A DNA stretch of 64,000 nt from Spirochaetota bacterium (GCA_027858855.1 JAQIBV010000039.1:18544-82543); one strand, 5' to 3'. Counted from the first letter of the stretch, positions 12,502 to 31,620 are shown. Notes: generated by a model from the sequence alone, not told the origin. Program-made: numbers and translations.

Positions 12502-13578
12502 ATGCCCGGGCTTATTGAAACCATAACGGATCCGCAGCATTTTCAGAGAATATTCTACGATTTTTTTCTCAAGGGTGAAGTCTATCTGAAAACTGCAAGT
12601 GGTAATTTCAAAATCCATTTTTTAGGATACACGAATGGGCAAGCGGCTCTTAAAATTCCTATTATTAAAAATATGCCGCCTTCCTGTGTCATACTCTGTC
12701 GGATTCCTGGTGAAACAATTTATGCACAGTTAAAACTTATCGAGAAACAGGAAGACGAGAATTATCTTTTATCACCAGTAAAAATTCAGATCATCAGTGC
12801 TGCCCGTAACGAACCCCGTCGTTCCATATCGGGTAAGGGCAAACAGCTTCTCTTTGTAACCAAGGTAATTTCGGACTCAATAATTGAACGATCGATTGCA
12901 TTTGATCAACGTAAAGCTGATCTTGCAAAACAGAAAGTTTCCGATCAACTTCAAACTATGTTTGCTTTTAAAAAGATCTATTTTTCTAATGAGGGAACAA
13001 GCGATGACCGGATGCGTTATTTTTATTCACGCAAAGCCGACTATCTTATTCCCGATTTCAAATCACTTGATCTTAAAAATCCGGTTCAACAGGAATTTAA
13101 TAATTCAATCTTGAGCAAGGATTACTATATTCAAAACCGCGGAACAGTAACGTCAGAAGCCTCTGCAGCAATCTATTACCGGAGTGCAATTCCCTTCGGA
13201 TATATTCAGGTAAATCATAGCAAAAAACTCAATCAATCAGTACTTGATGTTATTAAAAATCTTTCAATGCAGCTATCCAGGATTCTTATATCGGCTAAAA
13301 TATTTAAACCGCTAGATGAAAATCTTTTGGTCAGTGATCTATCAGAAAAGGGTGTGGGTATTGTTTTTCGTGAACGCTCCTACATCCGTTTTTTCCCAGA
13401 AAAAAGTTATGTTCACTTTGAACTTATACTTCCCGATCAGATTCATATTCCTATGCTGACAATTGTCAGGAATATTACATTTCTGGATAATAAAGTAATT
13501 AAAGCCGGATGTGAAATTATTTCAATTGACGATAGTGCAAAGCAGGTATACAATCATTTTCTTGATTCAATCAAGTAG
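12502..13578 (+). CDS. Hypothetical protein with degenerate PilZ-like motifs (possible c-di-GMP effector)
   Basis: RNEPRR (RxxxR-like) and DLSEKGVGIV (DxSxxG) motifs, but non-canonical spacing; GGAG RBS 7 nt upstream. Confidence 0.3.
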   Translation: MPGLIETITDPQHFQRIFYDFFLKGEVYLKTASGNFKIHFLGYTNGQAALKIPIIKNMPPSCVILCRIPGETIYAQLKLIEKQEDENYLLSPVKIQIISAARNEPRRSISGKGKQLLFVTKVISDSIIERSIAFDQRKADLAKQKVSDQLQTMFAFKKIYFSNEGTSDDRMRYFYSRKADYLIPDFKSLDLKNPVQQEFNNSILSKDYYIQNRGTVTSEASAAIYYRSAIPFGYIQVNHSKKLNQSVLDVIKNLSMQLSRILISAKIFKPLDENLLVSDLSEKGVGIVFRERSYIRFFPEKSYVHFELILPDQIHIPMLTIVRNITFLDNKVIKAGCEIISIDDSAKQVYNHFLDSIK

Positions 13579-13598: not shown

Positions 13599-15416
13599 TT
13601 GAATCTTTACAATCTTTTCGACTACAAACTTAAAATAGCTCTTCTTGAAGATGATCCGATTATTCTTCAGGATATTAGTTCCATGCTCGAATCGCTGGGA
13701 CATTCCGTAGTTGCGACCTATCTTTCAGGTGAGGCTATGCTTGAAGAGTATCAGTATCTTCAATGTGACCTCTTTGTGCTAGATATCGAACTTAAGGGCG
13801 AAAAAAACGGTGTAGATGTTGCAGTCGAGATGCAAAAAACACGTTCGGTCCCTCTAATTTACCTTACATCCTATTCTGATGATGAAACTGTAACCAGAAT
13901 TCTTAAGACCGATCCCTATGGTTTCATTCTGAAACCAGCACGAAAAGATCATCTTCGTATCGCAATTAACATTGCCTATTACAAGTTTTTGTCAGATAAA
14001 AGGATTCGGGAAAGTGAACAGCGCTACCAGAGTATTGTTAAAACATTGCCTCTGATGCTGGCTCGAATAAACCCTATAAACGATTTTGTTACCTTTTGCA
14101 ATGATAATTTTAAGGATCACTTTTTTGATCCAACAGGAAAATTTCAAATAAACTTTTTTGATAAAATGGAGAAAATAGGCTTTGCAGATCTTATAGATGT
14201 TTTTCCGAGTTTAAGCCGGGTTGACAACGGAGTTACTAAAGAGTATCAGGTTAATCGTAAAGATAAACAGCACTATTACAAAGTTATATGCCAGGCATTA
14301 TACGATTCTGAAGGAAGTCTGTTCGAGTATCAGTTTTTATGTGAAGACATAACCAGAATTAAAGAGCGTGAACAAAAGATACAGGCATATAGTAGCGAGC
14401 TTGACAAACGAATCCGGGAACTAAAATGCTTGTATAGCATTTCACGTGTACTTGAAAACAGCCGTAATATCAGTAAAATATTGCAAAGAGTTGTTGATGA
14501 GGTAGCGCTTGCTCTTAATGATTCTCAAAATGTCTCCTCCTGTGTTGAGTATGGCGTCGAATCTTTCTACTCCTATAATTTTTTCACAAGTTTCTCAGTC
14601 TTTACTCATCCCATTATTGTTCGGGGAAGTATAGTCGGTCAGATTCATCTACATGTGGTTGAATCTGTGGATCGTTCGGAACTATTTAACAATGGAGAAC
14701 TGGACCTTCTGATCACTGTTTCCGACATGATCAGTAAAATTGTTGAAAAGATTGAAGCTGAAGAGCAGCTCAAAAAACTTGAAAAAGAGATAATCATGAC
14801 CAGCGAACGTGAAAAACAGAATCTGGGTCACGAACTACATGATGGAATAGGTCAGATACTTACAGGAACAAGTTTTATTTTAAAATCATTGGAAAACAAA
14901 TTAGCTAAATCAGGTGATGTGCCGCAAGAACTCACAGATGTTATTGAACTAGTAAAAGATGCTACATCAAAATGCCGCCGTTTATCAAAAGGGCTAGTTC
15001 CGGTCTCCTATTCAAATGAAACCTTTGTCTATCTTGTTGAGCAGTTACTGCATAGCACAAATCAGCTTTACAATGTAAATTTTGAGCTTGACATTCCTGA
15101 AAATTTTGACATTAAAAACAGCTTTGTAACATCACAGCTTTACCGAATTGTGCAGGAAGCTGTTAATAACACCGTTAAACATGCTGACGCTACGAAAATT
15201 ACTCTTCGTCTTGAAGATGAGAATGAATGGGTTCGTCTTGCGATATCGGACAATGGGCATGGTCTTAAAACACGTGGTAAAGACGCAGGGTTGGGGATGA
15301 ATATAATGAAATATCGTGCAGATTTGATCGGCGCTAATTTTGATGTAATCATGGAAGAAAAAAGTGGAACAACTGTTGTGGTCCGATTGCCACGTGATCT
15401 TATTGTTTATGAATAA
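13599..15416 (+). CDS. Hybrid sensor histidine kinase: N-terminal receiver (REC) + PAS-like + HisKA_3 + HATPase_c (NarX/DegS type); TTG start
   Basis: REC (KIALLEDDPII...LFVLDIELKG...K); HisKA_3 H-box EKQNLGHELHDGIGQIL; HATPase N/G boxes (VNNTVKHA, DNGHGL, GLGMNIMKYRADLIG). Confidence 0.75.
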   Translation: MNLYNLFDYKLKIALLEDDPIILQDISSMLESLGHSVVATYLSGEAMLEEYQYLQCDLFVLDIELKGEKNGVDVAVEMQKTRSVPLIYLTSYSDDETVTRILKTDPYGFILKPARKDHLRIAINIAYYKFLSDKRIRESEQRYQSIVKTLPLMLARINPINDFVTFCNDNFKDHFFDPTGKFQINFFDKMEKIGFADLIDVFPSLSRVDNGVTKEYQVNRKDKQHYYKVICQALYDSEGSLFEYQFLCEDITRIKEREQKIQAYSSELDKRIRELKCLYSISRVLENSRNISKILQRVVDEVALALNDSQNVSSCVEYGVESFYSYNFFTSFSVFTHPIIVRGSIVGQIHLHVVESVDRSELFNNGELDLLITVSDMISKIVEKIEAEEQLKKLEKEIIMTSEREKQNLGHELHDGIGQILTGTSFILKSLENKLAKSGDVPQELTDVIELVKDATSKCRRLSKGLVPVSYSNETFVYLVEQLLHSTNQLYNVNFELDIPENFDIKNSFVTSQLYRIVQEAVNNTVKHADATKITLRLEDENEWVRLAISDNGHGLKTRGKDAGLGMNIMKYRADLIGANFDVIMEEKSGTTVVVRLPRDLIVYE

Positions 15417-15443
15417 GCAGAATTACAATCCTTCGGGGGAAAA

Positions 15444-16079
15444 ATGGATATAATGATAATTGACGATCATCCTGTGGTACGCAAAGGTATAAGGTCTATC
15501 CTTGAAAGCGAAGAGGATCTTCATGTCACTCTTGAGGCTGAAAGTGCAGCTGAAGCAATGGAAAAAATTTCCGGTAAAAAGCCCGATTTAGTGATTGTGG
15601 ATATAGAACTGAAGGGTGCTGAAAACGGCGTTCAACTGATTAAAATGATAAAGACTGCTTATCCGGAGATAACCTCTCTTGTTATGTCGATGGATGATGG
15701 TAGTCTTTATGCGGAGCGTGCGATTCGAGCAGGGGCACTTGGTTATGTCGCAAAAGAGGAGGCCTCCGAAAAAATTGTCAGTGCGATTAGACAGGTAATG
15801 AGTGGGGAGCTTTATCTTAGTTCCAAACTTTCGCATATAATTGCCTCAACCCATGTTATGGGTAATTCTATGCTGGATGTTAACCGATTATCGAACAAAG
15901 AGTTGGAGATATTCAAACTGATTGGACAGGGCTACAAAAGGAGTGAAATCTCAAAGCAGATGAGCATGAATATTAATACAATTGAGTCGCATCGACGAAA
16001 AATTCGGGAGAAATTCAATATTAAAAATTCTTCTGACCTTTCGAGGCTTGCTGTCAAGTGGTATGTAGAATCACAGTAG
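15444..16079 (+). CDS. NarL/LuxR-family response regulator (REC + LuxR-type HTH)
   Basis: REC (IMIIDDHPVVRKG...DLVIVDIELKG); C-terminal LuxR HTH (LSNKELEIFKLIGQGYKRSEISKQMSMNINTIESHRRKI). Confidence 0.85.
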   Translation: MDIMIIDDHPVVRKGIRSILESEEDLHVTLEAESAAEAMEKISGKKPDLVIVDIELKGAENGVQLIKMIKTAYPEITSLVMSMDDGSLYAERAIRAGALGYVAKEEASEKIVSAIRQVMSGELYLSSKLSHIIASTHVMGNSMLDVNRLSNKELEIFKLIGQGYKRSEISKQMSMNINTIESHRRKIREKFNIKNSSDLSRLAVKWYVESQ

Positions 16080-16150
16080 GGAACTTCGAAAAATTACAAT
16101 ATTTTAGACGACAGTCCTGTTCAAAAAATATTACTTCTTGTACAACTCAC

Positions 16151-16221
16151 TTGACAAATATATATTGGTATCCTCTAATATTTTAATAATCTCAAAGATA
16201 AGTTTCCTGTTCTTGAACAGG
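16151..16221 (+). promoter_or_regulatory. Candidate promoter TTGACA-17nt-TCTAAT (16151-16179) followed by inverted repeat CCTGTTC-tt-GAACAGG (16206-16221); an additional CCTGTTC half-site lies about 90 nt upstream
   Basis: Near-consensus hexamers with 17-nt spacing; 7-bp-arm inverted repeat about 27-42 nt downstream of the -10 (downstream of the inferred start), before the HAMP-protein gene. Confidence 0.4.
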
Positions 16222-16270
16222 TAAACTTAATGGCATTTCAGCGCATAAAATTGATGATCGGGAGCCACTG

Positions 16271-17074
16271 ATGACGTTTCATCCTAAAAAATTTATTTCT
16301 CTGGTTTTTTCCCGTTTTAAGCGTGATAAATCGTATTCACGCCTTAAAAAGAAATTACTTCTGTACTTTATACTTGTTTCAGTTGTCTCAATTTCTGTTT
16401 CGGCACAGATTATTCTTGAAATGAGTTCCAGCAGGTTTCGTAACCAGATCCGTGATGGCTATATAGAGTCTATTGCAAAGGATATCGGGTTAGAGGAGGC
16501 CTCGCAACTTCAAAATGTCAGTACTGATGCCATTGCAATACCGGTCTCTCAATTACGTAATAGAATGCTTCTAATGCTGATAGTTGTAACTGCCAGTATT
16601 TTCGGAGCATTTTCTCTTTTTGTCCGTGATATTGTCGTTCCCATGGATGGCCTTGTCGAAGCGACTAAAAAAATTGCATCCGGCGATCTTAATGCTCATG
16701 CGCCTGTGATGTCGGAAGATGAAATTGGTCAGTTAGCTGAACTTATTAATGACATGAATATCAATATGCAGGATCTTATTACACAGGTTAGACGTGAACT
16801 TGATAATTATAACTTTGAAATTGCATTTGCCGTCGCCATGATTGGCCAGATTCTGGAAAATGAAAATACAGGTGACGCCCTGAAAAACAAACGTCTTAAA
16901 CTTTCCGAATTTAAACGAATTATTGAATTAAATAAGAGTGTTGAAACTGTACTGGACAAGATGAGTGATAAGCTGACATCTCTTCATAGTTTTATCAGCA
17001 CTTATACTAACTATACGATCTCTTCAGAAATAACTCAGAAAGAGATTGATGAATCACTAAGCCACTACAGATAA
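16271..17074 (+). CDS. Membrane protein with two TM helices and a HAMP domain, no recognizable output domain
   Basis: TM1 LLLYFILVSVVSISVSAQIIL; TM2 LLMLIVVTASIFGAFSLFV; HAMP RDIVVPMDGLVEATKKIASGDLNAHAPVMSEDEIGQLAELIN. Confidence 0.55.
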   Translation: MTFHPKKFISLVFSRFKRDKSYSRLKKKLLLYFILVSVVSISVSAQIILEMSSSRFRNQIRDGYIESIAKDIGLEEASQLQNVSTDAIAIPVSQLRNRMLLMLIVVTASIFGAFSLFVRDIVVPMDGLVEATKKIASGDLNAHAPVMSEDEIGQLAELINDMNINMQDLITQVRRELDNYNFEIAFAVAMIGQILENENTGDALKNKRLKLSEFKRIIELNKSVETVLDKMSDKLTSLHSFISTYTNYTISSEITQKEIDESLSHYR

Positions 17075-17087
17075 TAAAGGAATTTAA

Positions 17088-17888
17088 ATGGTTGTAGATT
17101 TCGTCTTGTTTGAACTGAATATTCAGTATTGGTACATGTTTCCTGTTTCAATTTTAGTTGCTATTATTTGCAACGCATCGGGATTCTCTGGTGGAGTTAT
17201 CTTCCAGCCTATTTATAATATATTTCTGAATATTCCAATCCAGAATGCAGTTGCAACCGGTATTGCGACTGAAACTGTAGGTATGACAAGTGGTGCATTT
17301 CGTTATCTATGGTACAGGATGATCGAATTACCTGTTGGCTTTACAATGATCATGCTTACTATTCCTGGGGTTGTTCTTGGCAACTTTGCACTCCTGGTAA
17401 TAGATGAGGATCTACTTAAGCTTATTCTGGGTATCATTATTATTGGTCTTGCATCGATGCAACTTTTTGGTGCGATACGTAAGCATTTTGGTACCCGCGA
17501 GAATATTCCGATTGAGGATATGTACAGCTATTTATGGATTCCACCAGTCGGAGGGTTCTTTTCAGCTGCTACCGGAACCGGTATTTGTGAACTTGCTCAG
17601 CCAGTTCTTGAAAAAGGGCTTAAAATTAAAACAAAGCGGGCTAATGCTACAGCGATACTCGTAGAAGCGACAGGCGACTGGATCATTACCATCCTCAACC
17701 TTCATGCCGGTTTGATTATGTGGGAGCTGTGGATTTTTACCGGAACAGGTGTTATAATCGGTGGCCAAATTGGCCCTTACTTATCCAAGTACCTCCCTGA
17801 TCGTATATTAAAACTGCTCTTCTCGGTTTTTGTAATCGGCGTTGGTATTTTTTACATTACAAAGGGCATAGACTGGATAATTAAATAG
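17088..17888 (+). CDS. TauE/SafE-family (sulfite exporter-like) integral membrane protein
   Basis: About 8 predicted TM segments with internal duplication; G-rich motifs typical of the TauE family. Confidence 0.6.
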   Translation: MVVDFVLFELNIQYWYMFPVSILVAIICNASGFSGGVIFQPIYNIFLNIPIQNAVATGIATETVGMTSGAFRYLWYRMIELPVGFTMIMLTIPGVVLGNFALLVIDEDLLKLILGIIIIGLASMQLFGAIRKHFGTRENIPIEDMYSYLWIPPVGGFFSAATGTGICELAQPVLEKGLKIKTKRANATAILVEATGDWIITILNLHAGLIMWELWIFTGTGVIIGGQIGPYLSKYLPDRILKLLFSVFVIGVGIFYITKGIDWIIK

Positions 17889-17989
17889 ACCGTTTTTTCT
17901 TGAAATCAGGTTATTATGAAATCAGCTTGACGATTCTCCAGAATAATATACTATATAATTGTATCAGAATTTGAAACAATGAGGAAATC

Positions 17990-19666
17990 ATGCAGGATAT
18001 AAAAGAACAGATAGCTTCTTCACAGCAACTTTCACAGCTAATTACATCGACAGCCTCTGATGTTAATAAAAAATCTCTTGAACGGAAAAAAATTACTGCA
18101 GTAAGCCGTACAGTTCTTGAACAGCTTATTAACCGTAATGATACAATGATTGCAAATTTTGAAACCGTTTTAACTAACCTTCAGGATTCTCAGCGTGCTA
18201 TTTCAAGTAATAGTGATAGTATTATCAGCAATAAAGATATTTTATCATCCATTATCGAACGGCTTGTTACAGTAGGTGGCGAATTAGCTCAGATGGAACA
18301 AGAAATCGAAAAGCTAACAGAAATAGTAGACGAAATTAAAGGTGATACCAATAAGATTTTCTCGCTTGCTCTTAATGCATCCATTGTCTCGAGTAAGTAT
18401 TCGAATACTTCCGGTGTTTTTGATATTCTCGCCAATAAACTTAATGAGATGTCAAACTTCATTAATCAAAACCTGGAAATTATAGTGAGTGTTGTACGTC
18501 CAATTACTGAAGGTGTGCAAAAACTGATAAAAGCCAACGAGAGTGTACTGCACGAGATTGGTGAGGGTACAAAAAGTCTTGATGAGCTGAACTCTGTTCT
18601 TGGTAAACAGGTCGAATCTATCAAAGAGCTTTTTGACCGTGCTGATATCTCAGGTAAAGAGATAAAAGAACAGAAACAGATGCTGAATGATGTTAATCAG
18701 ATGATAATTCAAATGGATAGTGATGCCCAGCAGTCTATTCAGGGGTCATCTAATGTTACTGATCTTGCAAAAAATCTTCAGGAAGAGGTAACCCACTTTC
18801 TGTCAATTCATAATTACAACGATGATTTCATAGATAGGGTAAACATAACAAAAGAGAAGGCTCAACATATCTGGCAGAACGCCGAAAATGTTAACCTGAA
18901 ATCAAAGAATCAACTACAGTTCTCTAAAAACTGTGAAGAGTTCAACGAAAAGATTATTAAAGAGTCTATACAGCTGCAGGAAACAGCAGAGATTATGAAT
19001 AAGCAGACCGGAGAAAACAGCAAGGTATCTGAGGATATTTCGGCAAATCTTACCCGGCTTACCCGTCAAATCGGGGACATAGAAACAAATATGAATGATT
19101 CGGGACGGACAATACAGAAATTTAACGATGACTATAAGCAGATTGACAACATTCTTGAGTTCTTAAAAAATATTCTTAAATCGATGCATCTAATAGGTAT
19201 GTATTCACGCATTGAATCGGCTCGCGATACCGAAGAGTTTGCCGGTTTCATGAATATCTCTTCCAACATTACCAATTTACAAAAAGAGATTCAAAATAAT
19301 ATACCTGTTATTGAGAAGAATATTAACGATACTCACCAGCTTATAGACTCAGTTAACTCGGCTTTTAAACATATTTCTGCCGACTTCGATATTATTTCTG
19401 GCAGTTCGAATCAAATTATTGCTCAACTTGAGGATATTGTAACAACTAACCGCAAAACTGAGACAACAAGTTCCTCAATGCTGGAAAATTCGACACAGAT
19501 CATTACTCTTTTGAATTCTCTTGACAACCACTTAAGCGAGCTTTCGACCGTAGTCGAATTTCCTATTGAAGGTTCATCCAAAAATGTTGAGCGTGGAAAA
19601 CAGATAGAGGATATTTTTAATGAAATTATTAAACAGGTGCAGATGATGGAAACGCCGGGTGTTTAG
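17990..19666 (+). CDS. Soluble coiled-coil protein with two degenerate methyl-accepting-chemotaxis-protein signalling-domain motifs
   Basis: LALNASIVSSKYSNTSGVFDILANKLNEMS and RIESARDTEEFAGFMNISSNITNLQKEI both align to the MCP core [31 protein letters not shown]. No TM segments; Q/E/N-rich heptad-like sequence. Confidence 0.45.
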   Translation: MQDIKEQIASSQQLSQLITSTASDVNKKSLERKKITAVSRTVLEQLINRNDTMIANFETVLTNLQDSQRAISSNSDSIISNKDILSSIIERLVTVGGELAQMEQEIEKLTEIVDEIKGDTNKIFSLALNASIVSSKYSNTSGVFDILANKLNEMSNFINQNLEIIVSVVRPITEGVQKLIKANESVLHEIGEGTKSLDELNSVLGKQVESIKELFDRADISGKEIKEQKQMLNDVNQMIIQMDSDAQQSIQGSSNVTDLAKNLQEEVTHFLSIHNYNDDFIDRVNITKEKAQHIWQNAENVNLKSKNQLQFSKNCEEFNEKIIKESIQLQETAEIMNKQTGENSKVSEDISANLTRLTRQIGDIETNMNDSGRTIQKFNDDYKQIDNILEFLKNILKSMHLIGMYSRIESARDTEEFAGFMNISSNITNLQKEIQNNIPVIEKNINDTHQLIDSVNSAFKHISADFDIISGSSNQIIAQLEDIVTTNRKTETTSSSMLENSTQIITLLNSLDNHLSELSTVVEFPIEGSSKNVERGKQIEDIFNEIIKQVQMMETPGV

Positions 19667-19685
19667 CACCTGGTGTTTAACAGGT

Positions 19686-20309
19686 CTACTCCATGTTTTT
19701 CATTTTTAATAATGATAGAACAGTTGTCATCATTGAATTTGTATCATATTCAATAGGATCCAGAGTCTGAATTATTCCTGTTGAAAGAAGAATTACCTGA
19801 ATTGTACGGCTTACTTGTCTAATTTTGGTTATATCAGTAGCCATTTCGGGAGAGAGCTCTTTCATTAAATTTTCAAATAACTGCAAGTGATGACGTAAAA
19901 ACGATTTGACCAGTTTCTTAATTTTTTTATCTTCAAAACTGTAAATAATTATGTTCATCAGAATAATGACATTATCCTGATTCATAAGGAATTTTTCAAT
20001 TGAATACATAGTTGAAAGAAGAGCCTTGTCACTCATTTTTGTCGCAACCTTCAGAACGTTTATCTGCTCTTCTTCGATAGAGTTAAAGAAATCCTCAATC
20101 AATTCCATGAAGAGACTCTCTTTTGTTGGGAAGTAGTGGCGCACTCCACCTTTTGACATACCAGCCTCATCGGCAACATCGTTGAGTGAAATCTGAGAAT
20201 AGACATCTTTCAAAAGACATCGCTTAAGAGCATCCAGTATTTCTGCTTTTTTTTGTTCAACTTTCTCTGTTTTTTCCATTTGTTTATTTCCCACAAAAAG
20301 TAAAGTCAT
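19686..20309 (-). CDS. TetR/AcrR-family transcriptional regulator
   Basis: N-terminal HTH LNDVADEAGMSKGGVRHYFPTKESLFMELIE. Confidence 0.8.
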   Translation of the reverse strand: MTLLFVGNKQMEKTEKVEQKKAEILDALKRCLLKDVYSQISLNDVADEAGMSKGGVRHYFPTKESLFMELIEDFFNSIEEEQINVLKVATKMSDKALLSTMYSIEKFLMNQDNVIILMNIIIYSFEDKKIKKLVKSFLRHHLQLFENLMKELSPEMATDITKIRQVSRTIQVILLSTGIIQTLDPIEYDTNSMMTTVLSLLKMKNME

Positions 20310-20371
20310 GCTACAATCTGCTCACCTTAATTAGCTTACATAAAAAAGTAAAGGGTATTTCAAAAATTTTT

Positions 20372-21631
20372 TTATTCTGTTTTCACACAGGGCAAGTCAC
20401 TCCATCGTGTTGTGTAAGCCGGTGATAAAAATTGTCGTTTCATTTGCCAGCTTTGTGTTAATCCCTCGGAAGCAAGAACAACAGTTTTTGATCCGTAACG
20501 GATGTTAAGAGAATCCATAACACTCATCAAGCGGGAATCCCGTTCTATATGATCATTCTGAGAAAAAAGTGAATACTGCTGTTCATCTTTTGGTGTTAAT
20601 CCGTGAAGCATTATGCCTGTTTTTTTATATTGATATCCTTCCTTGAAAAGAGTATGAAGCAATCGTGTTGCTTCTTTAGTAATAATAGGGCTTGAGTCGG
20701 TTGGATAATTAAGAGTAACAGTTGCCGAGTTTGAATAGTGCGGTTCATCTTTAAATAAGTTGGTAGCAATGTATACGGTAAGCGATGAACATAGTAAATT
20801 CATTGAACGTAAACGTGTGGCGGCACGGCAACCGTATTCGTGCACAGATTCACTTAATAATGCAAGCTTCGATACCGGGGTACCGAAAGAACGCGACGAG
20901 ACGATAGAACGGCGGTTAGGTGGGTACTTTTCCATCTTTATACAGGGAGTACCATTCAGCTCAAGTAGCGTGCGTAACCCTGTAACGGCCATCCGTTTAC
21001 GCACCCAGCTTTCGGGCATGTCAATAAATTCAGCTGTTGTGTTTATGCCGTGATGTGCAAGCAGCCGAGCATGTTGGACTCCTATTCCCCAGACCTGGCT
21101 TACGGGCACCATCTGTAAAATTTTTTTTCGATTAAAATCTGTAATACAGCAGCAACCATTTTTAACATTTTTTTTCGCATAAGCATTAGCAGCCTTAGCC
21201 AGCGTTTTTGTTGTACCCGCGCCAATTGACATTGGGATGCCAGTGCAACGTAAAATAGTTTCACGAATCTCTTCAGCAAGACTAAGAGCACTTTTTTCAG
21301 AAAGAGATTCCGTTGCAAGAAAGGCTTCATCGATTGAGTAGACTTCACATTCTTCGCTGAATGTGGCAAGCAGATCCATTACCCTTCGTGACATATCACC
21401 GTAGAGTGTATAGTTTGACGAGAGGTAGATTCCGTTATGGCGGTCAAGAAAGCTCCGCCACTTAAACAGGGGAGCTCCCCTGGGAATACCCAATGCCTTC
21501 GCTTCATTCGAAAGGGCTACGGCACATCCGTCGTTGTTCGAAAGAATTATAACGGGGCGTCCCCTCAGTCGCGGGTTAAATACCCGCTCGCACGAGACGT
21601 AAAAATTATTGCAGTCGGCAAGAAAATACAT
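20372..21631 (-). CDS. umuC: Y-family translesion DNA polymerase UmuC (start moved to the ATG giving MYFLADCNNFYVSCE)
   Basis: N-terminus matches the UmuC/DinB MFALCDVNNFYASCE pattern; SNNDGCAVALSNEAKALGI palm-domain motif; ATG overlaps the umuD TGA (TGATG). Confidence 0.8.
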   Translation of the reverse strand: MYFLADCNNFYVSCERVFNPRLRGRPVIILSNNDGCAVALSNEAKALGIPRGAPLFKWRSFLDRHNGIYLSSNYTLYGDMSRRVMDLLATFSEECEVYSIDEAFLATESLSEKSALSLAEEIRETILRCTGIPMSIGAGTTKTLAKAANAYAKKNVKNGCCCITDFNRKKILQMVPVSQVWGIGVQHARLLAHHGINTTAEFIDMPESWVRKRMAVTGLRTLLELNGTPCIKMEKYPPNRRSIVSSRSFGTPVSKLALLSESVHEYGCRAATRLRSMNLLCSSLTVYIATNLFKDEPHYSNSATVTLNYPTDSSPIITKEATRLLHTLFKEGYQYKKTGIMLHGLTPKDEQQYSLFSQNDHIERDSRLMSVMDSLNIRYGSKTVVLASEGLTQSWQMKRQFLSPAYTTRWSDLPCVKTE

Positions 21632-22062
21632 CAGAATGCCTGATGAATGATGTGGGTTACAACACCCCAAACTTCGAATTCGGCTTCTGGCTCAATAGAG
21701 ATATCATCATATTGTGGACTCTCGGCTCGCAGAAGGGCTCCGTTTTCCTTTACCAGCAGCCGCTTGACTGTCAGTTCCCCATCAATGACTGCGATAACAA
21801 TTTTCCCAGAGAGCGGTGTCAGTGATCGGTCTACGATCAGTATGTCGCCGGGATGAATTGCAGCATCCTTCATGGAATTTCCAGCTACGCGAACGAAGAA
21901 TGTGGACGCCGGATTTTTCACAAGATGCCGATTAAGATCAAGCGTGCTTTCGATATAATCTTCGGCTGGAGAGGGAAAACCGGCCTGTACCGAAGAACCG
22001 AAAAGTGGCCTTGAGCCCTGTGGCGCGGTTTCATCGGGGCGATTGAAAGTTAAGTTACTCAT
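21631..22062 (-). CDS. umuD: UmuD-like S24 peptidase (LexA-type autoprotease domain without DNA-binding HTH)
   Basis: 143 aa. Putative Ala-Gly cleavage site (SVQAGFPSP); catalytic Ser (AGNSM) and Lys (TVKRLL) context. GGAG RBS. Confidence 0.7.
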   Translation of the reverse strand: MSNLTFNRPDETAPQGSRPLFGSSVQAGFPSPAEDYIESTLDLNRHLVKNPASTFFVRVAGNSMKDAAIHPGDILIVDRSLTPLSGKIVIAVIDGELTVKRLLVKENGALLRAESPQYDDISIEPEAEFEVWGVVTHIIHQAF

Positions 22063-24663: not shown

Positions 24664-27600
24664 ATGCCACTTTATCTGTACCAGAGTAACCGCATCGAGA
24701 ATATAATCCCGCCATTGGCAGAAGCGTTACAAAGTCACTCTTCTGATGAAAATCTATTGGCAACCGATTACTGTCTGGTTCAGAGTATAGGTATGGGGCG
24801 CTACTTCGCCCTCGAGTTGGCAGGTTGTTCATCAATATTTGCCAACTATCGTATGGTTTACCCAAATGCTTTTTTGCAACTGCTGGCTTCGCATCATGGT
24901 ATTCGTGACCAGGTAGCTACCAAAGAGCAGATTGGCTGGAAAATATTCTCACTCATGAAATCGGGCTCTGTTAGCCATCCAGCACTCGAACACTACTGTG
25001 ATGGTTCGGATGATCTGAAACTTTTTACCTCTGCATATGCACTAGCCGATATCTTTGATCAATACGCGATGTATAGACCGACTATGGTTCAAGCCTGGGA
25101 CGAGGGACATGCCATTAAAATTGATAAAGGACAAACCGGTTCTCTTGATGTACAGGATGAGTGGCAATACATCTTATGGCGTCAGATATTCGATGGTACA
25201 ATGAATCATAAAGCCTCTTTTCAGAAGGAGGTAATTGCTTCAATTTCAAGCATTAGTGATCTTCCCTTTAAACGGCTTTTTATTCTCGGGGTATCTACGA
25301 TTCCTCTATTCTTTCTTGAAGTTATACATCATATATCACAATTCTGTAATATTCATGTAGGACTATTGGCTCCCTCTGGTGACTATTGGGAGGATATTGT
25401 AAACAAGAAGTACCGTTTTTTTACAGCACTGAATCAGCAGGCTTCTGTTGATATTTCGGACTATTTTTTTACCGGCAATACAATTTTAGGGTCTAACGGA
25501 ATGCTGGGGCGTGACTTCAATCAAATTTTATCTGATTATTTCGGAGATGAACTTGGAATTGACAGGGGAGATTTTTTCGAAGATGAACCTGATACAATAC
25601 TGGGTAACATACAACGCGATATCCGTGAGCTTAATGACCGTGGAATTTTTGGAGACAAAGAGGGTGCTAAATTTATTCGTCATGAGAGTGATCGTTCCCT
25701 TCAGATACATGGCGTGCACTCGAAGCGGCGAGAACTTGAAATTCTGCATGATACTCTGCTGGATATACTTAACAACGACAGTTCAGTAGAGCTTCGTGAT
25801 ATTCTGGTTATGACTCCGGCCATCAATGACTATGCGCCCTACATACAGGCCGTCTTTAATGAGTTCCGGGGCAGTGAATCGTTTCTTGACTTTTCAATTG
25901 CCGACCTTTCCCTTGCGACAGATAGCGAAACCGTACCCGCTTTTTTAAAGATAATCGCTCTTTATCGCACCCGTTTTACATGCAGTCAGATTGTCTCACT
26001 TCTGCGCTACCGTCCGCTTACAGAAAAAGCTGGTATTCCTGAAGATGAAATAGAGCGTGTTGGATTCTGGTTGCACGAGGCTTCATTTTGCTGGGGGCGT
26101 AATGCTGAAGATAGAAAAAAACTGTTGAATGTCAGTTATGATGAATACTCCTTGTCATTCGCACTTACTCGGCTTCTTCACGGTTATCTTTTCCCTCGTA
26201 ATTACGATCAAACCTTCGAAGACGTTTTCCCTTCCGGTGATTTCGAGGGAGAGCAGGCTATTTTAATGGGAAAGCTGATAGCGTTTGTTTCGCGTATCGA
26301 GCAGTTTACCCACAGTTGCGAAGAGCTACGCAGCTGTTCCGGTTGGGAGTCCCTTCTGCATGATCTGGTTCACGACCTCTTTTCAGATAATGACAATTAT
26401 GCAGAATCGCGTGAAATGCTTTTCTCGTCAATATCACGTTGTACATCCGCTTCTGATTCTATCTGTTCGGATGAGGTTCCATTTGAGATTATAGCACATC
26501 TTTTAGATACTCAATTAACTACAGAGAGCCGGGCTTTCGGTTTCATCGATGGACGCATCACTTTCTGTGAAATGTTGCCGATGCGGTCGATTCCCTTTAA
26601 GGTGATTGCAATTATCGGTTTTAATGAAAGCGACTTTCCTCGTGCGGCAATGAGAAACAGCTATGACCTGATTCATCGGTATCCACGAACAGGTGATCGT
26701 TCAACAAGATATGATGATCGATATCTTTTTCTTGAGACACTTCTTTCGGCTCGAAAGTTTTTATACTTCAGCTTTCAAGCCTATAAGGAGAGCGACAATA
26801 GTCGACTGTTTCCTTCACCATTGATTTCAGAATTACTACATTATCTTGAAGAAAACTGTGAAAATTTCAACGCCGCCGAATTTATTCTGTATCATAAGTT
26901 GCAGCCATTTTCTGCAGATTATGTAGCGACACGTAAAACGAATAGTAGTGAAAAAGATTCATCTGATTATTTTACCTACGACAAACGTCAGCCTCATAGG
27001 GCCCAGATCTATTATAAAAGTAAAAAAAATAAATCTGTATTTATATCAGATTCTATTACTTCAGAACCGGAATCTGCATCATTTCACCTTACACTCACAT
27101 CCTTAAAACGATTTTTCCAAAACAGTTCCCGCTTTTTTATGCAGCAACGTCTTGGTATCAGGTTTACCATCAGCTCTGATGAATATGAAAACAGTGAGCC
27201 ATATCAGATGTCAAAAGGAACCAGACGTTCATTGATCTTAACAATGGTTGAAGAGATTATTTCTGATAAAAAAATCAAGTCTGATAAAAAAACACTTCGC
27301 ATGAATGCTATTTTGCCACTTTTCGCTCCGGGAGATGCTGAGTATAGTTCTATAACAGCAGAGGCACACGATCTTTATGACCGGCTTTCATCTGAAACCA
27401 ATGTCACCACCTTTTCAAATTGTGATGCTAGGTTCAGCACTGACGGAAAAGAATCAACAGATACAACTCGATCGGTTCTGGTTACAGGCATATTTGATTT
27501 AGTAAACAGTGATGGACACTTTGTTCTCTTTCCATCGCCAAGAAAGCAGGCTGATCGTGAAATTGCTGGTTGGTGGCTGGAACATCTGCTCTTTCAATTT

Positions 27601-28017
27601 TCAGATGCCGACTGCAGGCGCAGCACGATTTTACTCTCTGACACCAAAATAACCTTTGAACAACTCGACAGAGATGTTGCGACTCTGTTTTTGAAGGGAA
27701 TTATATCGCTTTATGAAGATGGTCTCTATTATCCTTTGCGATTTGACTCTGCTGACTCCTATATGTTATACAGGGAAAGTCTTGATAGTGATAAAGATAT
27801 CTCTGATATTCTTGAAACAATAAAATATAAGAGTGGTGCCAGGTATGGTACTGACACCATCTATAATGATTATATAAAGAAGACCCAACAATACCGTCAA
27901 ATCTGCTTTCCTGATTCTGATATTTTTTATTCCCAACAGTTCACCGAATGCTCATTACGCTTTTTCAAAGGAATAAACGGTTATTTTTCCGAGTTGATGG
28001 AGGTTGAGAATGTCTGA
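24664..28017 (+). CDS. recC: Exodeoxyribonuclease V gamma subunit RecC
   Basis: N-terminus MPLYLYQSNRIENIIPPLAEAL resembles RecC N-termini (MLRVYHSNRLD...); size 1117 aa; operon with recB/recD. Confidence 0.85.
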   Translation: MPLYLYQSNRIENIIPPLAEALQSHSSDENLLATDYCLVQSIGMGRYFALELAGCSSIFANYRMVYPNAFLQLLASHHGIRDQVATKEQIGWKIFSLMKSGSVSHPALEHYCDGSDDLKLFTSAYALADIFDQYAMYRPTMVQAWDEGHAIKIDKGQTGSLDVQDEWQYILWRQIFDGTMNHKASFQKEVIASISSISDLPFKRLFILGVSTIPLFFLEVIHHISQFCNIHVGLLAPSGDYWEDIVNKKYRFFTALNQQASVDISDYFFTGNTILGSNGMLGRDFNQILSDYFGDELGIDRGDFFEDEPDTILGNIQRDIRELNDRGIFGDKEGAKFIRHESDRSLQIHGVHSKRRELEILHDTLLDILNNDSSVELRDILVMTPAINDYAPYIQAVFNEFRGSESFLDFSIADLSLATDSETVPAFLKIIALYRTRFTCSQIVSLLRYRPLTEKAGIPEDEIERVGFWLHEASFCWGRNAEDRKKLLNVSYDEYSLSFALTRLLHGYLFPRNYDQTFEDVFPSGDFEGEQAILMGKLIAFVSRIEQFTHSCEELRSCSGWESLLHDLVHDLFSDNDNYAESREMLFSSISRCTSASDSICSDEVPFEIIAHLLDTQLTTESRAFGFIDGRITFCEMLPMRSIPFKVIAIIGFNESDFPRAAMRNSYDLIHRYPRTGDRSTRYDDRYLFLETLLSARKFLYFSFQAYKESDNSRLFPSPLISELLHYLEENCENFNAAEFILYHKLQPFSADYVATRKTNSSEKDSSDYFTYDKRQPHRAQIYYKSKKNKSVFISDSITSEPESASFHLTLTSLKRFFQNSSRFFMQQRLGIRFTISSDEYENSEPYQMSKGTRRSLILTMVEEIISDKKIKSDKKTLRMNAILPLFAPGDAEYSSITAEAHDLYDRLSSETNVTTFSNCDARFSTDGKESTDTTRSVLVTGIFDLVNSDGHFVLFPSPRKQADREIAGWWLEHLLFQFSDADCRRSTILLSDTKITFEQLDRDVATLFLKGIISLYEDGLYYPLRFDSADSYMLYRESLDSDKDISDILETIKYKSGARYGTDTIYNDYIKKTQQYRQICFPDSDIFYSQQFTECSLRFFKGINGYFSELMEVENV

Positions 28018-31000: not shown

Positions 31001-31570
31001 ATGCACGGCTTTAATAAAACTTACAAAGATTATGTGAGTCGTTGTATTGATTCGGTACTTAAAGCACCTCTTCAAAAAAATTTTTCACTTTCATTACTGA
31101 CTGACCGCGACCGAATTCACGAAATGGAATTTTATTTTCCCATAGAATCGGTTAAACTGCAAAATCTGATATCAGTTGTGAATAGCTACTATCCTGAATT
31201 TCACTCTACAGAAAACACCCTCTTTTCTTCGGAACTAAAGGGTTACATGAAGGGTTTCATAGATTTGGTCTTTCAAAAAGAGGGCAAGCTTTATATAGCA
31301 GACTGGAAGAGTAATTACCTGTCAGGCAGTTATGAAGAGAACGCAATAACCGATTCTATGAAAATGCATAACTATCATATTCAACTGGTTATCTACTCTA
31401 TTGCCCTATGGCGGTATATTCGATCTCGAACGGGCACTTATAACTATCAGGTCTTCGGGGGAGTCTACTATTTTTATGTTCGAGGGATGGAGACTGATTC
31501 ACAGAATGGAGTCTATTTTAACCGTCCGCAACAGAAGTTTCTAGAAGAGGCTAACAGCTGCTTTTTATAA
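28010..31570 (+). CDS. recB: Exodeoxyribonuclease V beta subunit RecB (UvrD-like helicase + C-terminal PD-(D/E)xK nuclease); ATG at 28010 preferred over the TTG at 28004
   Basis: Walker A EAGAGTGKTFS; helicase motifs (VFIDEFQDTD; YRS near the end of the helicase domain; VALTRAR); C-terminal nuclease motifs (GFIDLV...DWKSN). GGAGG RBS 7 nt before 28010. Confidence 0.9.
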   Translation: MSDNISELDLTIPPSSGSVLVEAGAGTGKTFSIAILFLWEVIVKYRSVDSILVVTFTEAATSELKERIRNFLMLARDILSGSSKNEPAAIYIRTICEYNADEKEKERRMLIVAQAIYNFDDVSIFTIHGFCQRMLSENAFETGSPFATGLLDNEDDVVRQIVDDYYRSYIYRQDISSYSALVDSNVSVNRLTKWTLQYIKQNDIVITPETEVDITNSFVDKEMIELIEDITECALVLRETAIECRAEIESFFNVDNKFKVAYTMKLVVENLDLCIKFDPNTISFDKGAKKAVQFFSPVKIKSKGLKKAFIDEPVSHFFFEMSETLLSKIEKYEAKMEEIPLRVTALYHDLFAYTKKRLSEYKSERHLISYNDMLANLDAALTGMTDLAARIRTRYRSVFIDEFQDTDPLQYRIFSTIFKEADVPLYFIGDPKQAIYSFRGADLNTYLEAAKACSKTYSLTTNYRSTEDVLSPINRLFSGKAPFIEEGIVYADAQTAGQPQEREVIDDGQTNFIIPLINDMNSGGTQSLIAEHVAMEIEKILKLSADGKTCLTDSNSKQPRSIRPSDIAVLVRTSTQGSIVANAIRERGITAIEISPDSVYRSHEFFEMELLLFSLADPYSSSKLFALLSTRICSFSASKIDSLHIGESEEYNDLLLAIRNYAELWREKGFHAAVLAIFDDFKTYESVLGLEGGERIITNYMHIIELFHDYCLKTGAGPDELLFHIQLIKRGDTGENETEVPVRMESDEQAVIISTIHKSKGLEYPIVFVPYCWKNSAPLSGSPFTFHRNGKRYLDISASSKSDNYATCCNEILSENIRLLYVALTRARSRVYLYWGEIKNRNRNFYSSALDYLLFRDCVSDIEDVVMNLRSNLEEEKPSVYNRVKDYFKGYAVTAYNVIEVPAESDYIPVERTCNFSSREFTRSIDNSWKINSYSYITSGIRNEGQHERHYQSGNPVPDDMLPPGAAAGNCFHAILEQIAFIQPVSDYDELIEDQLRMHGFNKTYKDYVSRCIDSVLKAPLQKNFSLSLLTDRDRIHEMEFYFPIESVKLQNLISVVNSYYPEFHSTENTLFSSELKGYMKGFIDLVFQKEGKLYIADWKSNYLSGSYEENAITDSMKMHNYHIQLVIYSIALWRYIRSRTGTYNYQVFGGVYYFYVRGMETDSQNGVYFNRPQQKFLEEANSCFL

Positions 31571-31620
31571 AACAATAATAACAGCATGAACCGGATTCCA
31601 ACGACTATCAGGAAGATACT

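What the first reader, a model, noticed from the sequence alone, without database searches (positions are those of the whole stretch)
16151..19666. Possible split chemoreceptor-like module: HAMP-only membrane protein + TauE permease + cytoplasmic protein with duplicated degenerate MCP signalling motifs, behind a near-consensus promoter with an inverted-repeat operator
Seen in sequence:
- promoter TTGACA-17-TCTAAT (16151-16179);
- the inverted repeat CCTGTTC-tt-GAACAGG (16206-16221) lies 27-42 nt downstream of the -10, in the transcribed leader, an operator-like position, and an extra half-site lies upstream;
- gene 1 (16271-17074) has 2 TM helices and a HAMP domain and then ends, with no kinase, MCP or GGDEF output;
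- gene 2 is a TauE/SafE permease;
- gene 3 (17990-19666) is soluble, coiled-coil, and carries two diverged copies of the MCP adaptor/CheW-binding core (LALNASIVSS...GVFDILANKL; RIESARDTEEFAGFMNIS).

Inference: the sensing/HAMP module and the signalling module of a chemoreceptor-like protein may be encoded as separate polypeptides, or may be a decayed receptor. The cluster sits immediately downstream of a REC-PAS-HisKA_3 kinase / LuxR regulator pair that could control it.
Basis: partly seen in the sequence, partly recalled or inferred. Interest (0 to 1): 0.5.

Follow-up and report, generated by a model that had tools for sequence, protein, structure and literature searches.

The report
Spirochaete HAMP–permease–double-MCP signalling gene cluster
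Three intact genes from an uncultured spirochaete (a small membrane HAMP protein, a TauE-type permease and a soluble protein made of two chemoreceptor signalling hairpins in tandem) form a gene cluster that I found no description of and that is conserved across this lineage, so it is a working sensory module and not a decayed receptor.

Summary

Gene 3 is a tandem duplication of a whole MCP signalling hairpin. The family profile hits solved MCP structures with both halves at about 1e-10. It is not decayed: 57 clusters at 90% identity, all from Spirochaetota MAGs where a source names the organism, nearly all about 550-560 aa. Both hairpin tips are the best-conserved parts, yet they match the canonical CheA/CheW-binding tip at only 7-8 of 31 positions.

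Synteny holds. Gene 3 follows HAMP-TauE in 15 of the roughly 19 distinct loci with enough upstream context. The ancestral cluster has four genes: a polytopic, HAMP-less MCP with a canonical tip sits between TauE and gene 3. The window and its 80% relative have lost that gene. HAMP-TauE-polytopic MCP also occurs without gene 3, and gene 3 occurs alone.

The closest known architecture is DosM, the double-signalling-domain receptor of Vibrio. Here there is no F9 che context and the tips differ.

The inverted repeat is absent from the nearest relative. Gene 3 has its own conserved promoter. The kinase/LuxR neighbours are specific to this sub-lineage.

Verdict: new variant of a known kind, mechanism inferred only, interest moderate.

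The parts
16151..16179 (+). Sigma-70-like promoter P1 (TTGACA-17-TCTAAT) upstream of gene 1
   Evidence: Read directly in the sequence. Homologous TTGACA-17-TAAAAT in L007. Not listed by the consensus scan because the -10 lacks A at position 2.
16115..16122 (+). Extra half-site TCCTGTTC upstream of the -35
   Evidence: Not conserved in L007.
16199..16229 (+). Leader hairpin with a 13-bp bulged stem; its core is the 7-2-7 inverted repeat CCTGTTCttGAACAGG (16206-16221)
   Evidence: 90-nt leader MFE -20 kcal/mol, z -1.7. It lies in a segment of about 45 nt absent from L007. No match in the 29 loci held. No Rfam family.
16271..17074 (+). Gene 1: 2-TM protein with a short periplasmic loop, an MCP-type HAMP domain and a short C-terminal helical hairpin; no enzymatic or MCP output domain
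   Evidence: Pfam HAMP E 2.5e-11. AF2 pLDDT 76.7 with helices 24-51, 86-136, 151-196 and 211-246. Best solved match is the Tsr TM2-HAMP segment, E 1.2e-8. The family has 164 clusters; the 120 listed are 182-311 aa, mostly 250-270. TM helices, HAMP and a C-terminal motif are conserved, the loop is not.
17088..17888 (+). Gene 2: TauE/SafE (TSUP) family polytopic membrane protein, the best-conserved member of the cluster
   Evidence: Pfam TauE 112.6 bits. It is 70-91% identical across loci where gene 1 is 44-87% and gene 3 is 39-80% identical. All 120 listed homologues are at least 69% identical, and every one that a source assigns to a phylum is from Spirochaetota.
17927..17954 (+). Second sigma-70-like promoter P2 (TTGACG-16-TACTAT) directly upstream of gene 3
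   Evidence: Listed by the scan. The block CTTGACGATT..TATACTATATAA is conserved in L007.
17990..19666 (+). Gene 3: soluble tandem double MCP signalling-domain protein (four helices of about 130 aa)
   Evidence: Profile against PDB: the first half matches T. maritima MCP 2ch7 at E 2.4e-10 and the second half matches PcaY 6s18 at E 9.5e-10. Internal repeat: hhalign probability 90%, E 1.7e-6. AF2 pLDDT 85.8, pTM 0.61, helices 2-136, 143-271, 278-410 and 418-554. Colinear with canonical double-MCPsignal proteins of the same size.
18344..18484 (+). Hairpin tip 1 (residues 119-165, DT.xIFSLALNASIVSSKYSxTSGVFDILANKLNEMSNFINQNLE)
   Evidence: Near-invariant in 34 homologues. Conservation 0.82 against 0.42-0.49 in the arms. 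Aligns without gaps to the canonical tip with 7 of 31 identities; LALNA and the Phe are kept.
19121..19324 (+). Hairpin tip 2 (residues 378-445, ...LIGMYSRIESARDxEEFxGFM.IS...)
   Evidence: Near-invariant, conservation 0.76. 8 of 31 identities to the canonical tip; IE.AR..E...GF is kept.
13599..16079 (+). Context: REC-PAS-HisKA_3-HATPase kinase (13599-15416) and REC-GerE/LuxR regulator (15444-16079)
   Evidence: Pfam. Adjacent to the cluster only in the window, L007 and L021.
19686..20309 (-). Context: convergent TetR-family regulator
   Evidence: Pfam TetR_N. Syntenic in L021 and L009 only.

Best explanation
The region is a lineage-specific, functional membrane-signalling cluster of uncultured Spirochaetota.

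Shown:
- Gene 1 is a stand-alone MCP-type HAMP protein. Its two TM helices are conserved, but its roughly 35-aa outer loop is not.
- Gene 2 is a TauE/TSUP permease-like protein and is by far the most conserved partner.
- Gene 3 is a soluble protein built from two complete MCP signalling hairpins in tandem, the DosM-type architecture. Both tips are strongly conserved within the family but differ from the canonical CheA/CheW-binding tip.
- In most relatives a fourth gene lies between genes 2 and 3: a polytopic MCP with 6-7 TM helices, no HAMP and a canonical tip. The window's lineage has lost it.

Inferred mechanism:
- The permease and the HAMP protein form an intramembrane sensor, with sensing dependent on the transporter, as in intramembrane-sensing kinases that rely on a transporter partner.
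- The conformational signal passes to MCP-type coiled-coil rods.
- The polytopic MCP, where present, would plug into the chemotaxis array.
- The double-hairpin protein would act as a specialised partner or scaffold through its re-specified tips and a conserved layer near its open end.
- In the window it is the only MCP-type component left in the cluster, and it can also be transcribed from its own promoter.
For: - Domain calls.
- Both halves of the gene 3 family match solved MCP signalling domains at about 1e-10.
- The two halves are homologous repeats.
- Four helices of about 130 aa, pLDDT 85.8.
- Conservation peaks at the two tips, 0.82 and 0.76 against about 0.45 in the arms.
- Synteny of HAMP-TauE-(MCP570)-gene 3: 11 distinct four-gene loci plus 4 three-gene loci.
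- HAMP-TauE-MCP570 without gene 3 in 4 of 4 sampled gene 1 relatives.
- Called gene ends overlap or abut in relatives: HAMP/TauE in L003-L005, L029, L030 and L032; TauE/MCP in L032.
- L011 carries a second, divergent HAMP-TauE pair.
- TauE is 70-91% identical where its partners are 39-57%.
- Gene 1's TM helices and HAMP are conserved and its loop is variable. Its HAMP is MCP-type.
- L021 has the same flanking genes plus MCP570, which implies loss in the window lineage.
Against: - No physical interaction has been tested.
- No che genes or other MCP lie in the 64 kb.
- Gene 3 occurs alone in 4 loci and has its own promoter, so it need not work with genes 1 and 2.
- No methylation-site consensus in gene 3 or MCP570.
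- The tips share only 7-8 of 31 positions with the canonical tip, so coupling to CheA/CheW is doubtful.
- The substrate and transport activity of the TauE protein are unknown, and no solved homologue exists.
- All sequences come from MAGs or metagenomes.
Confidence: 0.5

Rival explanations
1. One reading: genes 1 and 3 are the two halves of one split chemoreceptor. Gene 1 supplies TM and HAMP, gene 3 supplies the signalling bundle, and the two dock to act as a single MCP.
For: - Gene 1's HAMP is MCP-type.
- Genes 1, 2 and 3 are adjacent in 15 of about 19 loci with context.
- Three or four lineages lost MCP570 yet kept gene 1, gene 2 and gene 3 (window/L007, L023, L011).
- Gene 3 has a conserved layer of motifs near its open end, and gene 1 has a conserved C-terminal motif; these could dock.
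Against: - The broader core is gene 1, gene 2 and MCP570 without gene 3.
- Gene 3 occurs alone (L001, L012, L015, L026).
- Its nearest outgroup, canonical double-MCP proteins, is stand-alone with no HAMP or TauE nearby.
- No fused HAMP plus double-MCP protein was seen.
- Gene 3 has a separate promoter.
Confidence: 0.2
2. Gene 3 is a DosM-like structural scaffold: a homodimeric extended rod with one tip at each end that stabilises a cytoplasmic two-layer chemoreceptor array. On this view its adjacency to HAMP-TauE is not mechanistic.
For: - It has the same two-signalling-domain, sensor-less architecture as DosM (PMC7534058, PMC9321776).
- It is colinear with canonical double-MCPsignal proteins of equal size.
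- It occurs as a lone gene in some genomes.
Against: - No CheW3 or F9 genes lie nearby.
- None of 42 Spirochaetes genomes had an F9 class in the published survey (PMC9321776, supplementary file 10).
- Both tips are non-canonical.
- Synteny with HAMP-TauE is conserved.
Confidence: 0.15
3. The output is transport, not taxis: the HAMP protein and the MCP-like rods regulate or gate the TauE permease, so the coiled-coil proteins are regulatory subunits of a transporter.
For: - TauE is the most constrained component.
- Genes are tightly packed.
- No methylation consensus.
- Tips are non-canonical.
Against: - MCP570 keeps a canonical CheA/CheW-type tip, 19 of 31 identities, which points to array coupling.
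- I know of no precedent for MCP domains gating a TSUP permease, and the literature search found none.
Confidence: 0.1
4. Gene 3 is a decayed receptor or pseudogene, or an unrelated coiled coil (SMC-like, phasin-like).
For: - Pfam MCPsignal falls just below its threshold, 34.3 against 34.6 bits.
- Weak SMC, Mce and ATG17 hits typical of coiled coils.
Against: - The ORF is intact and length is conserved across 57 clusters.
- The tips are near-invariant.
- The profile matches MCP structures with both halves at 1e-10.
- It aligns colinearly with canonical double MCPs.
Confidence: 0.03
5. The 7-2-7 inverted repeat is an operator for the adjacent NarL/LuxR-type response regulator, which would control the cluster.
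For: - Exact 7-2-7 palindrome, unique in the window, plus an upstream half-site.
- 7-2-7 geometry is typical of NarL-family sites (my own knowledge).
- The kinase and regulator lie immediately upstream.
Against: - It lies in a segment of about 45 nt missing from the 80% relative, which keeps the promoter and the same kinase/regulator pair.
- L021 has no inverted repeat.
- It is the core of a longer 13-bp hairpin, consistent with a 5'-UTR structure or a small palindromic insertion.
- The kinase/regulator adjacency is confined to one sub-lineage.
Confidence: 0.15

Closest known systems
DosM (Vibrio cholerae VC1403), the double-signalling-domain receptor of F9 chemosensory systems
   Same: - Soluble, with no sensor domain.
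- Two complete MCP signalling domains in tandem in one polypeptide.
- Gene 3 is colinear with canonical double-MCPsignal proteins found by the profile search.
   Different: - No F9 context, that is no CheW3, CheA or CheB/R. The published survey found no F9 class in 42 Spirochaetes genomes (PMC9321776 supplement).
- Arms of about 130-137 aa (roughly 38-40 heptads per hairpin) against 44H for F9.
- Both tips diverge from the canonical tip, 7-8 of 31 identities.
- Conserved neighbours are HAMP, TauE and a polytopic MCP.
- The AF2 monomer model folds back into a four-helix bundle, whereas DosM is an extended rod by cryo-ET (PMC7534058).
- No DosM sequence was available for a direct comparison.
Canonical MCP cytoplasmic signalling domain (e.g. 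T. maritima TM1143 2ch7, E. coli Tsr 1qu7)
   Same: - Long antiparallel helical hairpin with the tip as the most conserved part.
- Ungapped alignment at the tip.
- The conserved Phe (Tsr F396 equivalent) is retained in both tips (F144, F420), as are LALNA in tip 1 and IE.AR..E...GF in tip 2.
   Different: - Two hairpins in one chain.
- Most charged tip residues are replaced.
- No methylation-site consensus.
- No TM, HAMP or sensor domain.
- The Pfam score is just below threshold.
Intramembrane-sensing or transporter-dependent sensors (BceS-BceAB, DcuS-DctA/DcuB type co-sensing; my own knowledge)
   Same: - A 2-TM signalling protein with a minimal, non-conserved outer loop and conserved TM helices, encoded next to a transporter-like protein.
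- Called gene ends overlap or abut in several relatives.
   Different: - The output is not a histidine kinase but a bare HAMP plus a short hairpin.
- The partner is a TSUP/TauE permease.
- MCP-type proteins are the presumed downstream elements.
- Nothing has been shown experimentally.
TauE/SafE (TSUP, PF01925) anion exporters/permeases
   Same: - Full-length Pfam match at 112.6 bits.
- Several hydrophobic segments in a crude hydropathy scan.
- Gly-rich motifs in both halves: SGFSGG and TGTG.
   Different: - Embedded in a signalling cluster, not a sulfur or sulfonate metabolic one.
- An unusually conserved, Spirochaetota-restricted subfamily.
- Substrate unknown.

Membership tests
MCP signalling domain (Pfam PF00015) | Sequence match to the family model | tested here: met
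   The window protein alone scores 34.3 bits against a 34.6 cut-off. The family profile matches solved MCP signalling domains with both halves: 2ch7 at E 2.4e-10 and 6s18 at E 9.5e-10. Many homologues carry a precomputed PF00015 hit.
MCP signalling domain (Pfam PF00015) | Long antiparallel two-helix hairpin | tested here: met
MCP signalling domain (Pfam PF00015) | Canonical hairpin-tip consensus (..[31 protein letters not shown]..) used for trimer, CheW and CheA contacts | tested here: not met
   7 of 31 (tip 1) and 8 of 31 (tip 2) identities to the Tsr core tip, against 19 of 31 for the neighbouring MCP570 and 25 of 31 for TM1143. The TM1143 comparison sequence was also typed, but nearly all of it (all but its first three residues) matches the stretch printed.
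MCP signalling domain (Pfam PF00015) | Methylation sites ([ASTG][ASTG]xx[EQ][EQ]xx[ASTG][ASTG]) | tested here: not met
   No match in gene 3 or in MCP570. The consensus derives from enteric and Thermotoga receptors and may not transfer.
MCP signalling domain (Pfam PF00015) | Binds CheW/CheA and controls kinase activity | not testable with these tools
   No che genes in the window. Needs biochemistry or complex prediction.
DosM-type double-signalling-domain receptors (F9 class) | Two MCP signalling domains in tandem with no sensor or TM domain | tested here: met
DosM-type double-signalling-domain receptors (F9 class) | Encoded with F9 components (triple CheW, CheA, CheB/R) | tested here: not met
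   None in the 64-kb window or in the related loci examined. No Spirochaetes genome had an F9 class in the published survey.
DosM-type double-signalling-domain receptors (F9 class) | Extended rod with one tip at each end, spanning two baseplates | tested here: inconclusive
DosM-type double-signalling-domain receptors (F9 class) | 44H heptad class | tested here: not met
   Arms are 129-137 residues, about 19-20 heptads each or 38-40H, against 44H listed for F9.
HAMP domain (PF00672), gene 1 | Sequence match above threshold, located directly after TM2 | tested here: met
   44.2 bits against a 25 cut-off, residues 117-162. TM2 and AS1 form a continuous helix 86-136 and AS2 starts at 151.
HAMP domain (PF00672), gene 1 | Followed by an output domain (kinase, MCP, GGDEF, phosphatase) | tested here: not met
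   Only a helical hairpin of about 100 aa follows. The 120 listed members of 164 clusters are 182-311 aa.
TauE/SafE (TSUP) permeases, gene 2 | Full-length match to PF01925 | tested here: met
   112.6 bits against a 32.6 cut-off, profile positions 2-236 of 237.
TauE/SafE (TSUP) permeases, gene 2 | Transport of sulfite, sulfonates or another anion | not testable with these tools
   No solved homologue and no metabolic genes in the cluster that would suggest a substrate.
NarL/LuxR-type 7-2-7 operator | Inverted heptamers with a 2-bp spacer near the regulated promoter, conserved with the regulator | tested here: not met
   The geometry is present, but the site is absent from L007 and L021, which keep the same regulator pair.

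The most novel reading that the evidence does not exclude
A clade-specific signalling pathway in which a TSUP permease and a stand-alone MCP-type HAMP protein signal to a single-chain 'pseudo-dimer' chemoreceptor bundle. The two non-identical tips of that bundle (tip 1 keeps LALNA, tip 2 keeps IE.AR..E...GF) would sit side by side and would have been re-specified for a partner other than the standard CheA/CheW baseplate. That would be an MCP-fold transducer uncoupled from, or asymmetrically coupled to, the chemotaxis kinase.
Probability: 0.15. Interest if true: 0.75.

Novelty: new variant of a known kind. Interest (0 to 1): 0.5.

Why it matters
- Chemoreceptor signalling domains are thought to work as symmetric homodimers whose near-universal tip docks on CheA/CheW. 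Here a whole family keeps the fold, duplicates it within one chain and conserves two different, non-canonical tips. If the compact model holds, it is a natural single-chain asymmetric receptor 'dimer'.
- The family is fixed in an operon with a permease and a bare HAMP protein. That would give a tractable case for how transporters feed chemosensory arrays and for what a stand-alone HAMP protein does.
- It would extend DosM-like architectures to Spirochaetota, where the published survey found no F9 system.
- If the cluster turns out to be merely a DosM-like scaffold next to a transporter, the finding is of modest, taxon-specific interest.

Tried and rejected
- 'Decayed or unrelated coiled coil' is rejected.
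- Rosetta-stone search. The 120 listed gene 1 homologues are 182-311 aa. The longer gene 3 homologues (605-698 aa) have no extra Pfam domain. Distant double-MCPsignal proteins are not fused to HAMP or TM domains. No fusion was found.
- A remnant of the missing polytopic MCP was sought in the 101-nt gap between genes 2 and 3 and elsewhere in the window. There was none.
- Foldseek against PDB was uninformative for this long coiled coil. The afdb50 library was unavailable.
- Rfam found nothing in 16000-20400.
- The inverted repeat and the hairpin were searched for in the 29 loci held at that point. There were no matches.
- Literature searches for a TauE+HAMP+MCP cluster or a spirochaete double-domain receptor found nothing relevant.
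- The original DosM paper (PMC5027440) is not held, and no DosM sequence was available for direct comparison.
- The contexts of three canonical double-MCP outgroup proteins showed neither che genes nor HAMP-TauE.

Full report
**1. Observation**

The three ORFs are intact on the + strand: 16271-17074 (267 aa), 17088-17888 (266 aa) and 17990-19666 (558 aa).

TTGACA (16151-16156), a 17-nt spacer and TCTAAT (16174-16179) are present as described. The -10 carries C where sigma-70 promoters almost always have A, so the tool's consensus scan omits it. The 80%-identical relative L007 has TTGACA-17-TAAAAT at the homologous position, so a real promoter is plausible.

The palindrome CCTGTTCttGAACAGG (16206-16221) is exact and unique in the window. 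The upstream half-site lies at 16115-16122.

Gene 1 has two hydrophobic segments and a HAMP domain and no other domain. Gene 2 is a full-length TauE/SafE protein. Gene 3 has no TM segment and gives two sub-threshold MCPsignal stretches.

**2. What gene 3 is**

A database search found 57 clusters (at 90% identity). Every one that a source assigns to a phylum is a Spirochaetota MAG. Nearly all are 546-569 aa.

In an alignment of 34 of them (A1), conservation is sharply bimodal.
- Two blocks are nearly invariant: residues 119-165 (..IFSLALNASIVSSKYSxTSGVFDILANKLNEMSNFINQNLE) and 378-445 (..LKNILKSMxLIGMYSRIESARDxEEFxGFMxIS..).
- Majority-residue frequency there is 0.82 and 0.76, against 0.42-0.49 in the flanking helices.

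A profile of A1 hits solved MCP signalling domains with both halves. Profile positions 69-289 match T. maritima TM1143 (2ch7) at E 2.4e-10. Positions 264-548 match PcaY (6s18) at E 9.5e-10. The two halves are themselves homologous in register (hhalign probability 90%, E 1.7e-6).

AlphaFold2 with A1 gives four helices of about 130 residues (2-136, 143-271, 278-410, 418-554), pLDDT 85.8 and pTM 0.61. The turns fall exactly at the two conserved blocks, and a third turn lies at 272-277.

Both blocks align without gaps to the canonical MCP hairpin tip.
- Tip 1 keeps LALNA and the conserved Phe.
- Tip 2 keeps IE.AR..E...GF.
- Each shares only 7-8 of 31 core positions with Tsr, against 19-25 of 31 for canonical receptors. 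The TM1143 comparison sequence was also typed; all but its first three residues match the stretch printed.
- No methylation consensus is present.

So gene 3 is a tandem-duplicated, selected MCP signalling protein with re-specified tips. It is neither a decayed receptor nor an unrelated coiled coil.

**3. Relation to known double-domain receptors**

An exhaustive profile search of 1.84 billion representatives shows a sharp family boundary.
- The last full-length member scores 564 bits, followed by shorter partial sequences.
- The next full-length proteins score 139 bits or less.
- Several of the next hits are proteins of the same size (542-551 aa) with two strong canonical MCPsignal stretches (115-157 bits).
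- One of them, P0308, is colinear with gene 3 over residues 63-546. In both hairpins it shares an N-terminal motif (A..VN..S) and a C-terminal motif (IEGSxxN), and its tips are canonical.

This is the DosM architecture. DosM of V. cholerae has two signalling domains and no sensor, and by cryo-ET it forms an extended rod with one tip at each end in F9 cytoplasmic arrays (PMC7534058; PMC9321776).

The differences here are these.
- There are no F9 genes in the window or in the related loci examined.
- The published survey found an F9 class in none of 42 Spirochaetes genomes (supplementary file 10).
- The hairpin arms are about 38-40 heptads long, against 44H for F9.
- Both tips are non-canonical.

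**4. The cluster**

I ran tblastn of the window proteins against the fetched loci (28, 32).
- In 11 distinct loci the arrangement is HAMP (about 265 aa), TauE (about 257 aa), MCP (about 565 aa), gene 3.
- The extra MCP has 6-7 N-terminal TM segments, no HAMP and a canonical tip, with MCPsignal at 83-90 bits.
- It is missing in the window, L007, L023 and L011.
- L021 (gene 3 63% identical) has the same flanks as the window (PilZ-like, kinase, LuxR regulator upstream, TetR downstream) and still has the MCP. The window/L007 lineage therefore lost it.
- No remnant of it is detectable.
- Gene 3 is alone in L001, L012, L015 and L026.
- Four gene 1 homologues sampled on long contigs all show HAMP-TauE-MCP without gene 3.

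The core module is therefore HAMP-TauE-polytopic MCP, with gene 3 an accessory added in one sub-clade.

Called gene ends overlap or abut in several relatives. L011 carries a second, divergent HAMP-TauE pair on the other strand.

TauE is the most conserved component. It is 70-91% identical where gene 1 is 44-87% and gene 3 is 39-80% identical. All 120 listed homologues are at least 69% identical.

**5. Gene 1**

The family has 164 clusters. The 120 listed are 182-311 aa, mostly 250-270, and every one with a phylum-level name is from Spirochaetota.
- Conserved parts: TM1, TM2, the HAMP domain and a C-terminal motif (F...Y..Y..SEI.Q.EID).
- Not conserved: the roughly 35-residue outer loop.
- AF2 (pLDDT 76.7): TM1 24-51, short loop helices, TM2 plus AS1 86-136, AS2 plus an extension 151-196, a return helix 211-246.
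- Best solved match: the TM2-HAMP-MH1 segment of E. coli Tsr, E 1.2e-8, ahead of kinase HAMPs.

A signalling protein with conserved TM helices and a variable minimal loop, encoded next to a permease, fits intramembrane, partner-dependent sensing. This is an inference from analogy with transporter-dependent sensor kinases, from my own knowledge.

**6. Regulation**

The inverted repeat is the core of a 13-bp bulged hairpin at 16199-16229. It lies in a segment of about 45 nt that L007 lacks, although L007 keeps the promoter, the leader, the RBS and the same kinase/regulator pair. L021 has no inverted repeat. Rfam finds nothing. The 7-2-7 geometry fits NarL-type sites, but the lack of conservation argues for a lineage-specific 5'-UTR hairpin or small insertion.

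A second promoter-like element, TTGACG-16-TACTAT (17927-17954), precedes gene 3 and is conserved in L007. Gene 3 can therefore probably be expressed independently of genes 1 and 2.

The kinase/LuxR pair is adjacent only in the window, L007 and L021.

**7. Mechanism and verdict**

Shown: the domain identities, the tandem duplication, purifying selection focused on two non-canonical tips, conserved synteny, and loss of the polytopic MCP in this lineage.

Inferred: TauE and the HAMP protein form an intramembrane sensor that signals to MCP-type rods. The polytopic MCP would couple to the chemotaxis array. Gene 3 would act as a specialised partner or scaffold. In the window it is the only MCP-type element left in the cluster.

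The 'decayed' alternative and the operator idea are not.

No paper describing this cluster was found. I rate it a new variant of a known kind, interest 0.5.

Noticed in passing
window 17927-17954: A sigma-70-like promoter (TTGACG-16-TACTAT) lies directly upstream of gene 3, inside a block conserved with the 80% relative L007. It suggests gene 3 is also transcribed independently of genes 1 and 2.
   Followed up: partly
L003 6274-7986; L021 5153-6850; L005 6258-7976: The fourth gene of the ancestral cluster is an MCP with a canonical tip. Its N-terminal membrane domain has 6-7 TM segments over about 225 aa, has no Pfam match and is not followed by a HAMP domain. It may be an undescribed membrane sensor domain.
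   Followed up: partly
L011 6271-7731 (- strand): A second, highly divergent HAMP-TauE pair (25-32% identity) lies head-to-tail on the opposite strand, between the first pair and gene 3. It supports HAMP-TauE as a functional unit.
   Followed up: no
L010 5390-7869: The TauE and polytopic-MCP genes each give two split tblastn segments. This suggests frameshifts, either pseudogenisation or assembly errors, in this MAG.
   Followed up: no
window 40895-47951: Three consecutive large ORFs (1504, 355 and 493 aa, + strand) have no Pfam match at E <= 1e-5. They lie downstream of a sugar-nucleotide biosynthesis block.
   Followed up: no
window 12502-13578: A 358-aa protein has only a weak C-terminal PilZ match (E 0.02). 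It is syntenic with the kinase/LuxR pair in L007 and L021, so it may be a c-di-GMP-linked partner of that two-component system.
   Followed up: no
window 19669-19684: An imperfect palindrome, CCTGGTGTTTAACAGG, fills the 19-nt gap between the convergent stop codons of gene 3 and the TetR gene. It resembles the leader inverted repeat at 13 of 16 positions.
   Followed up: no
window 20372-22062 and 24664-33531: A umuDC-like pair (Peptidase_S24 plus an IMS polymerase) and a recBCD-like operon lie downstream. No chemotaxis or flagellar genes occur anywhere in the 64 kb.
   Followed up: partly
gene 3 residues 21-29, 245-256, 297-305, 525-533 (window 18050-18076, 18722-18757, 18878-18904, 19562-19588): Four conserved motifs (A..VN.KS in helices 1 and 3, I.GS..N in helices 2 and 4) all lie 15-29 residues from the open end of the hairpins. 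They are shared with canonical double-MCP proteins such as P0308. They form a conserved layer of unknown function that could be a docking or hinge site.
   Followed up: partly
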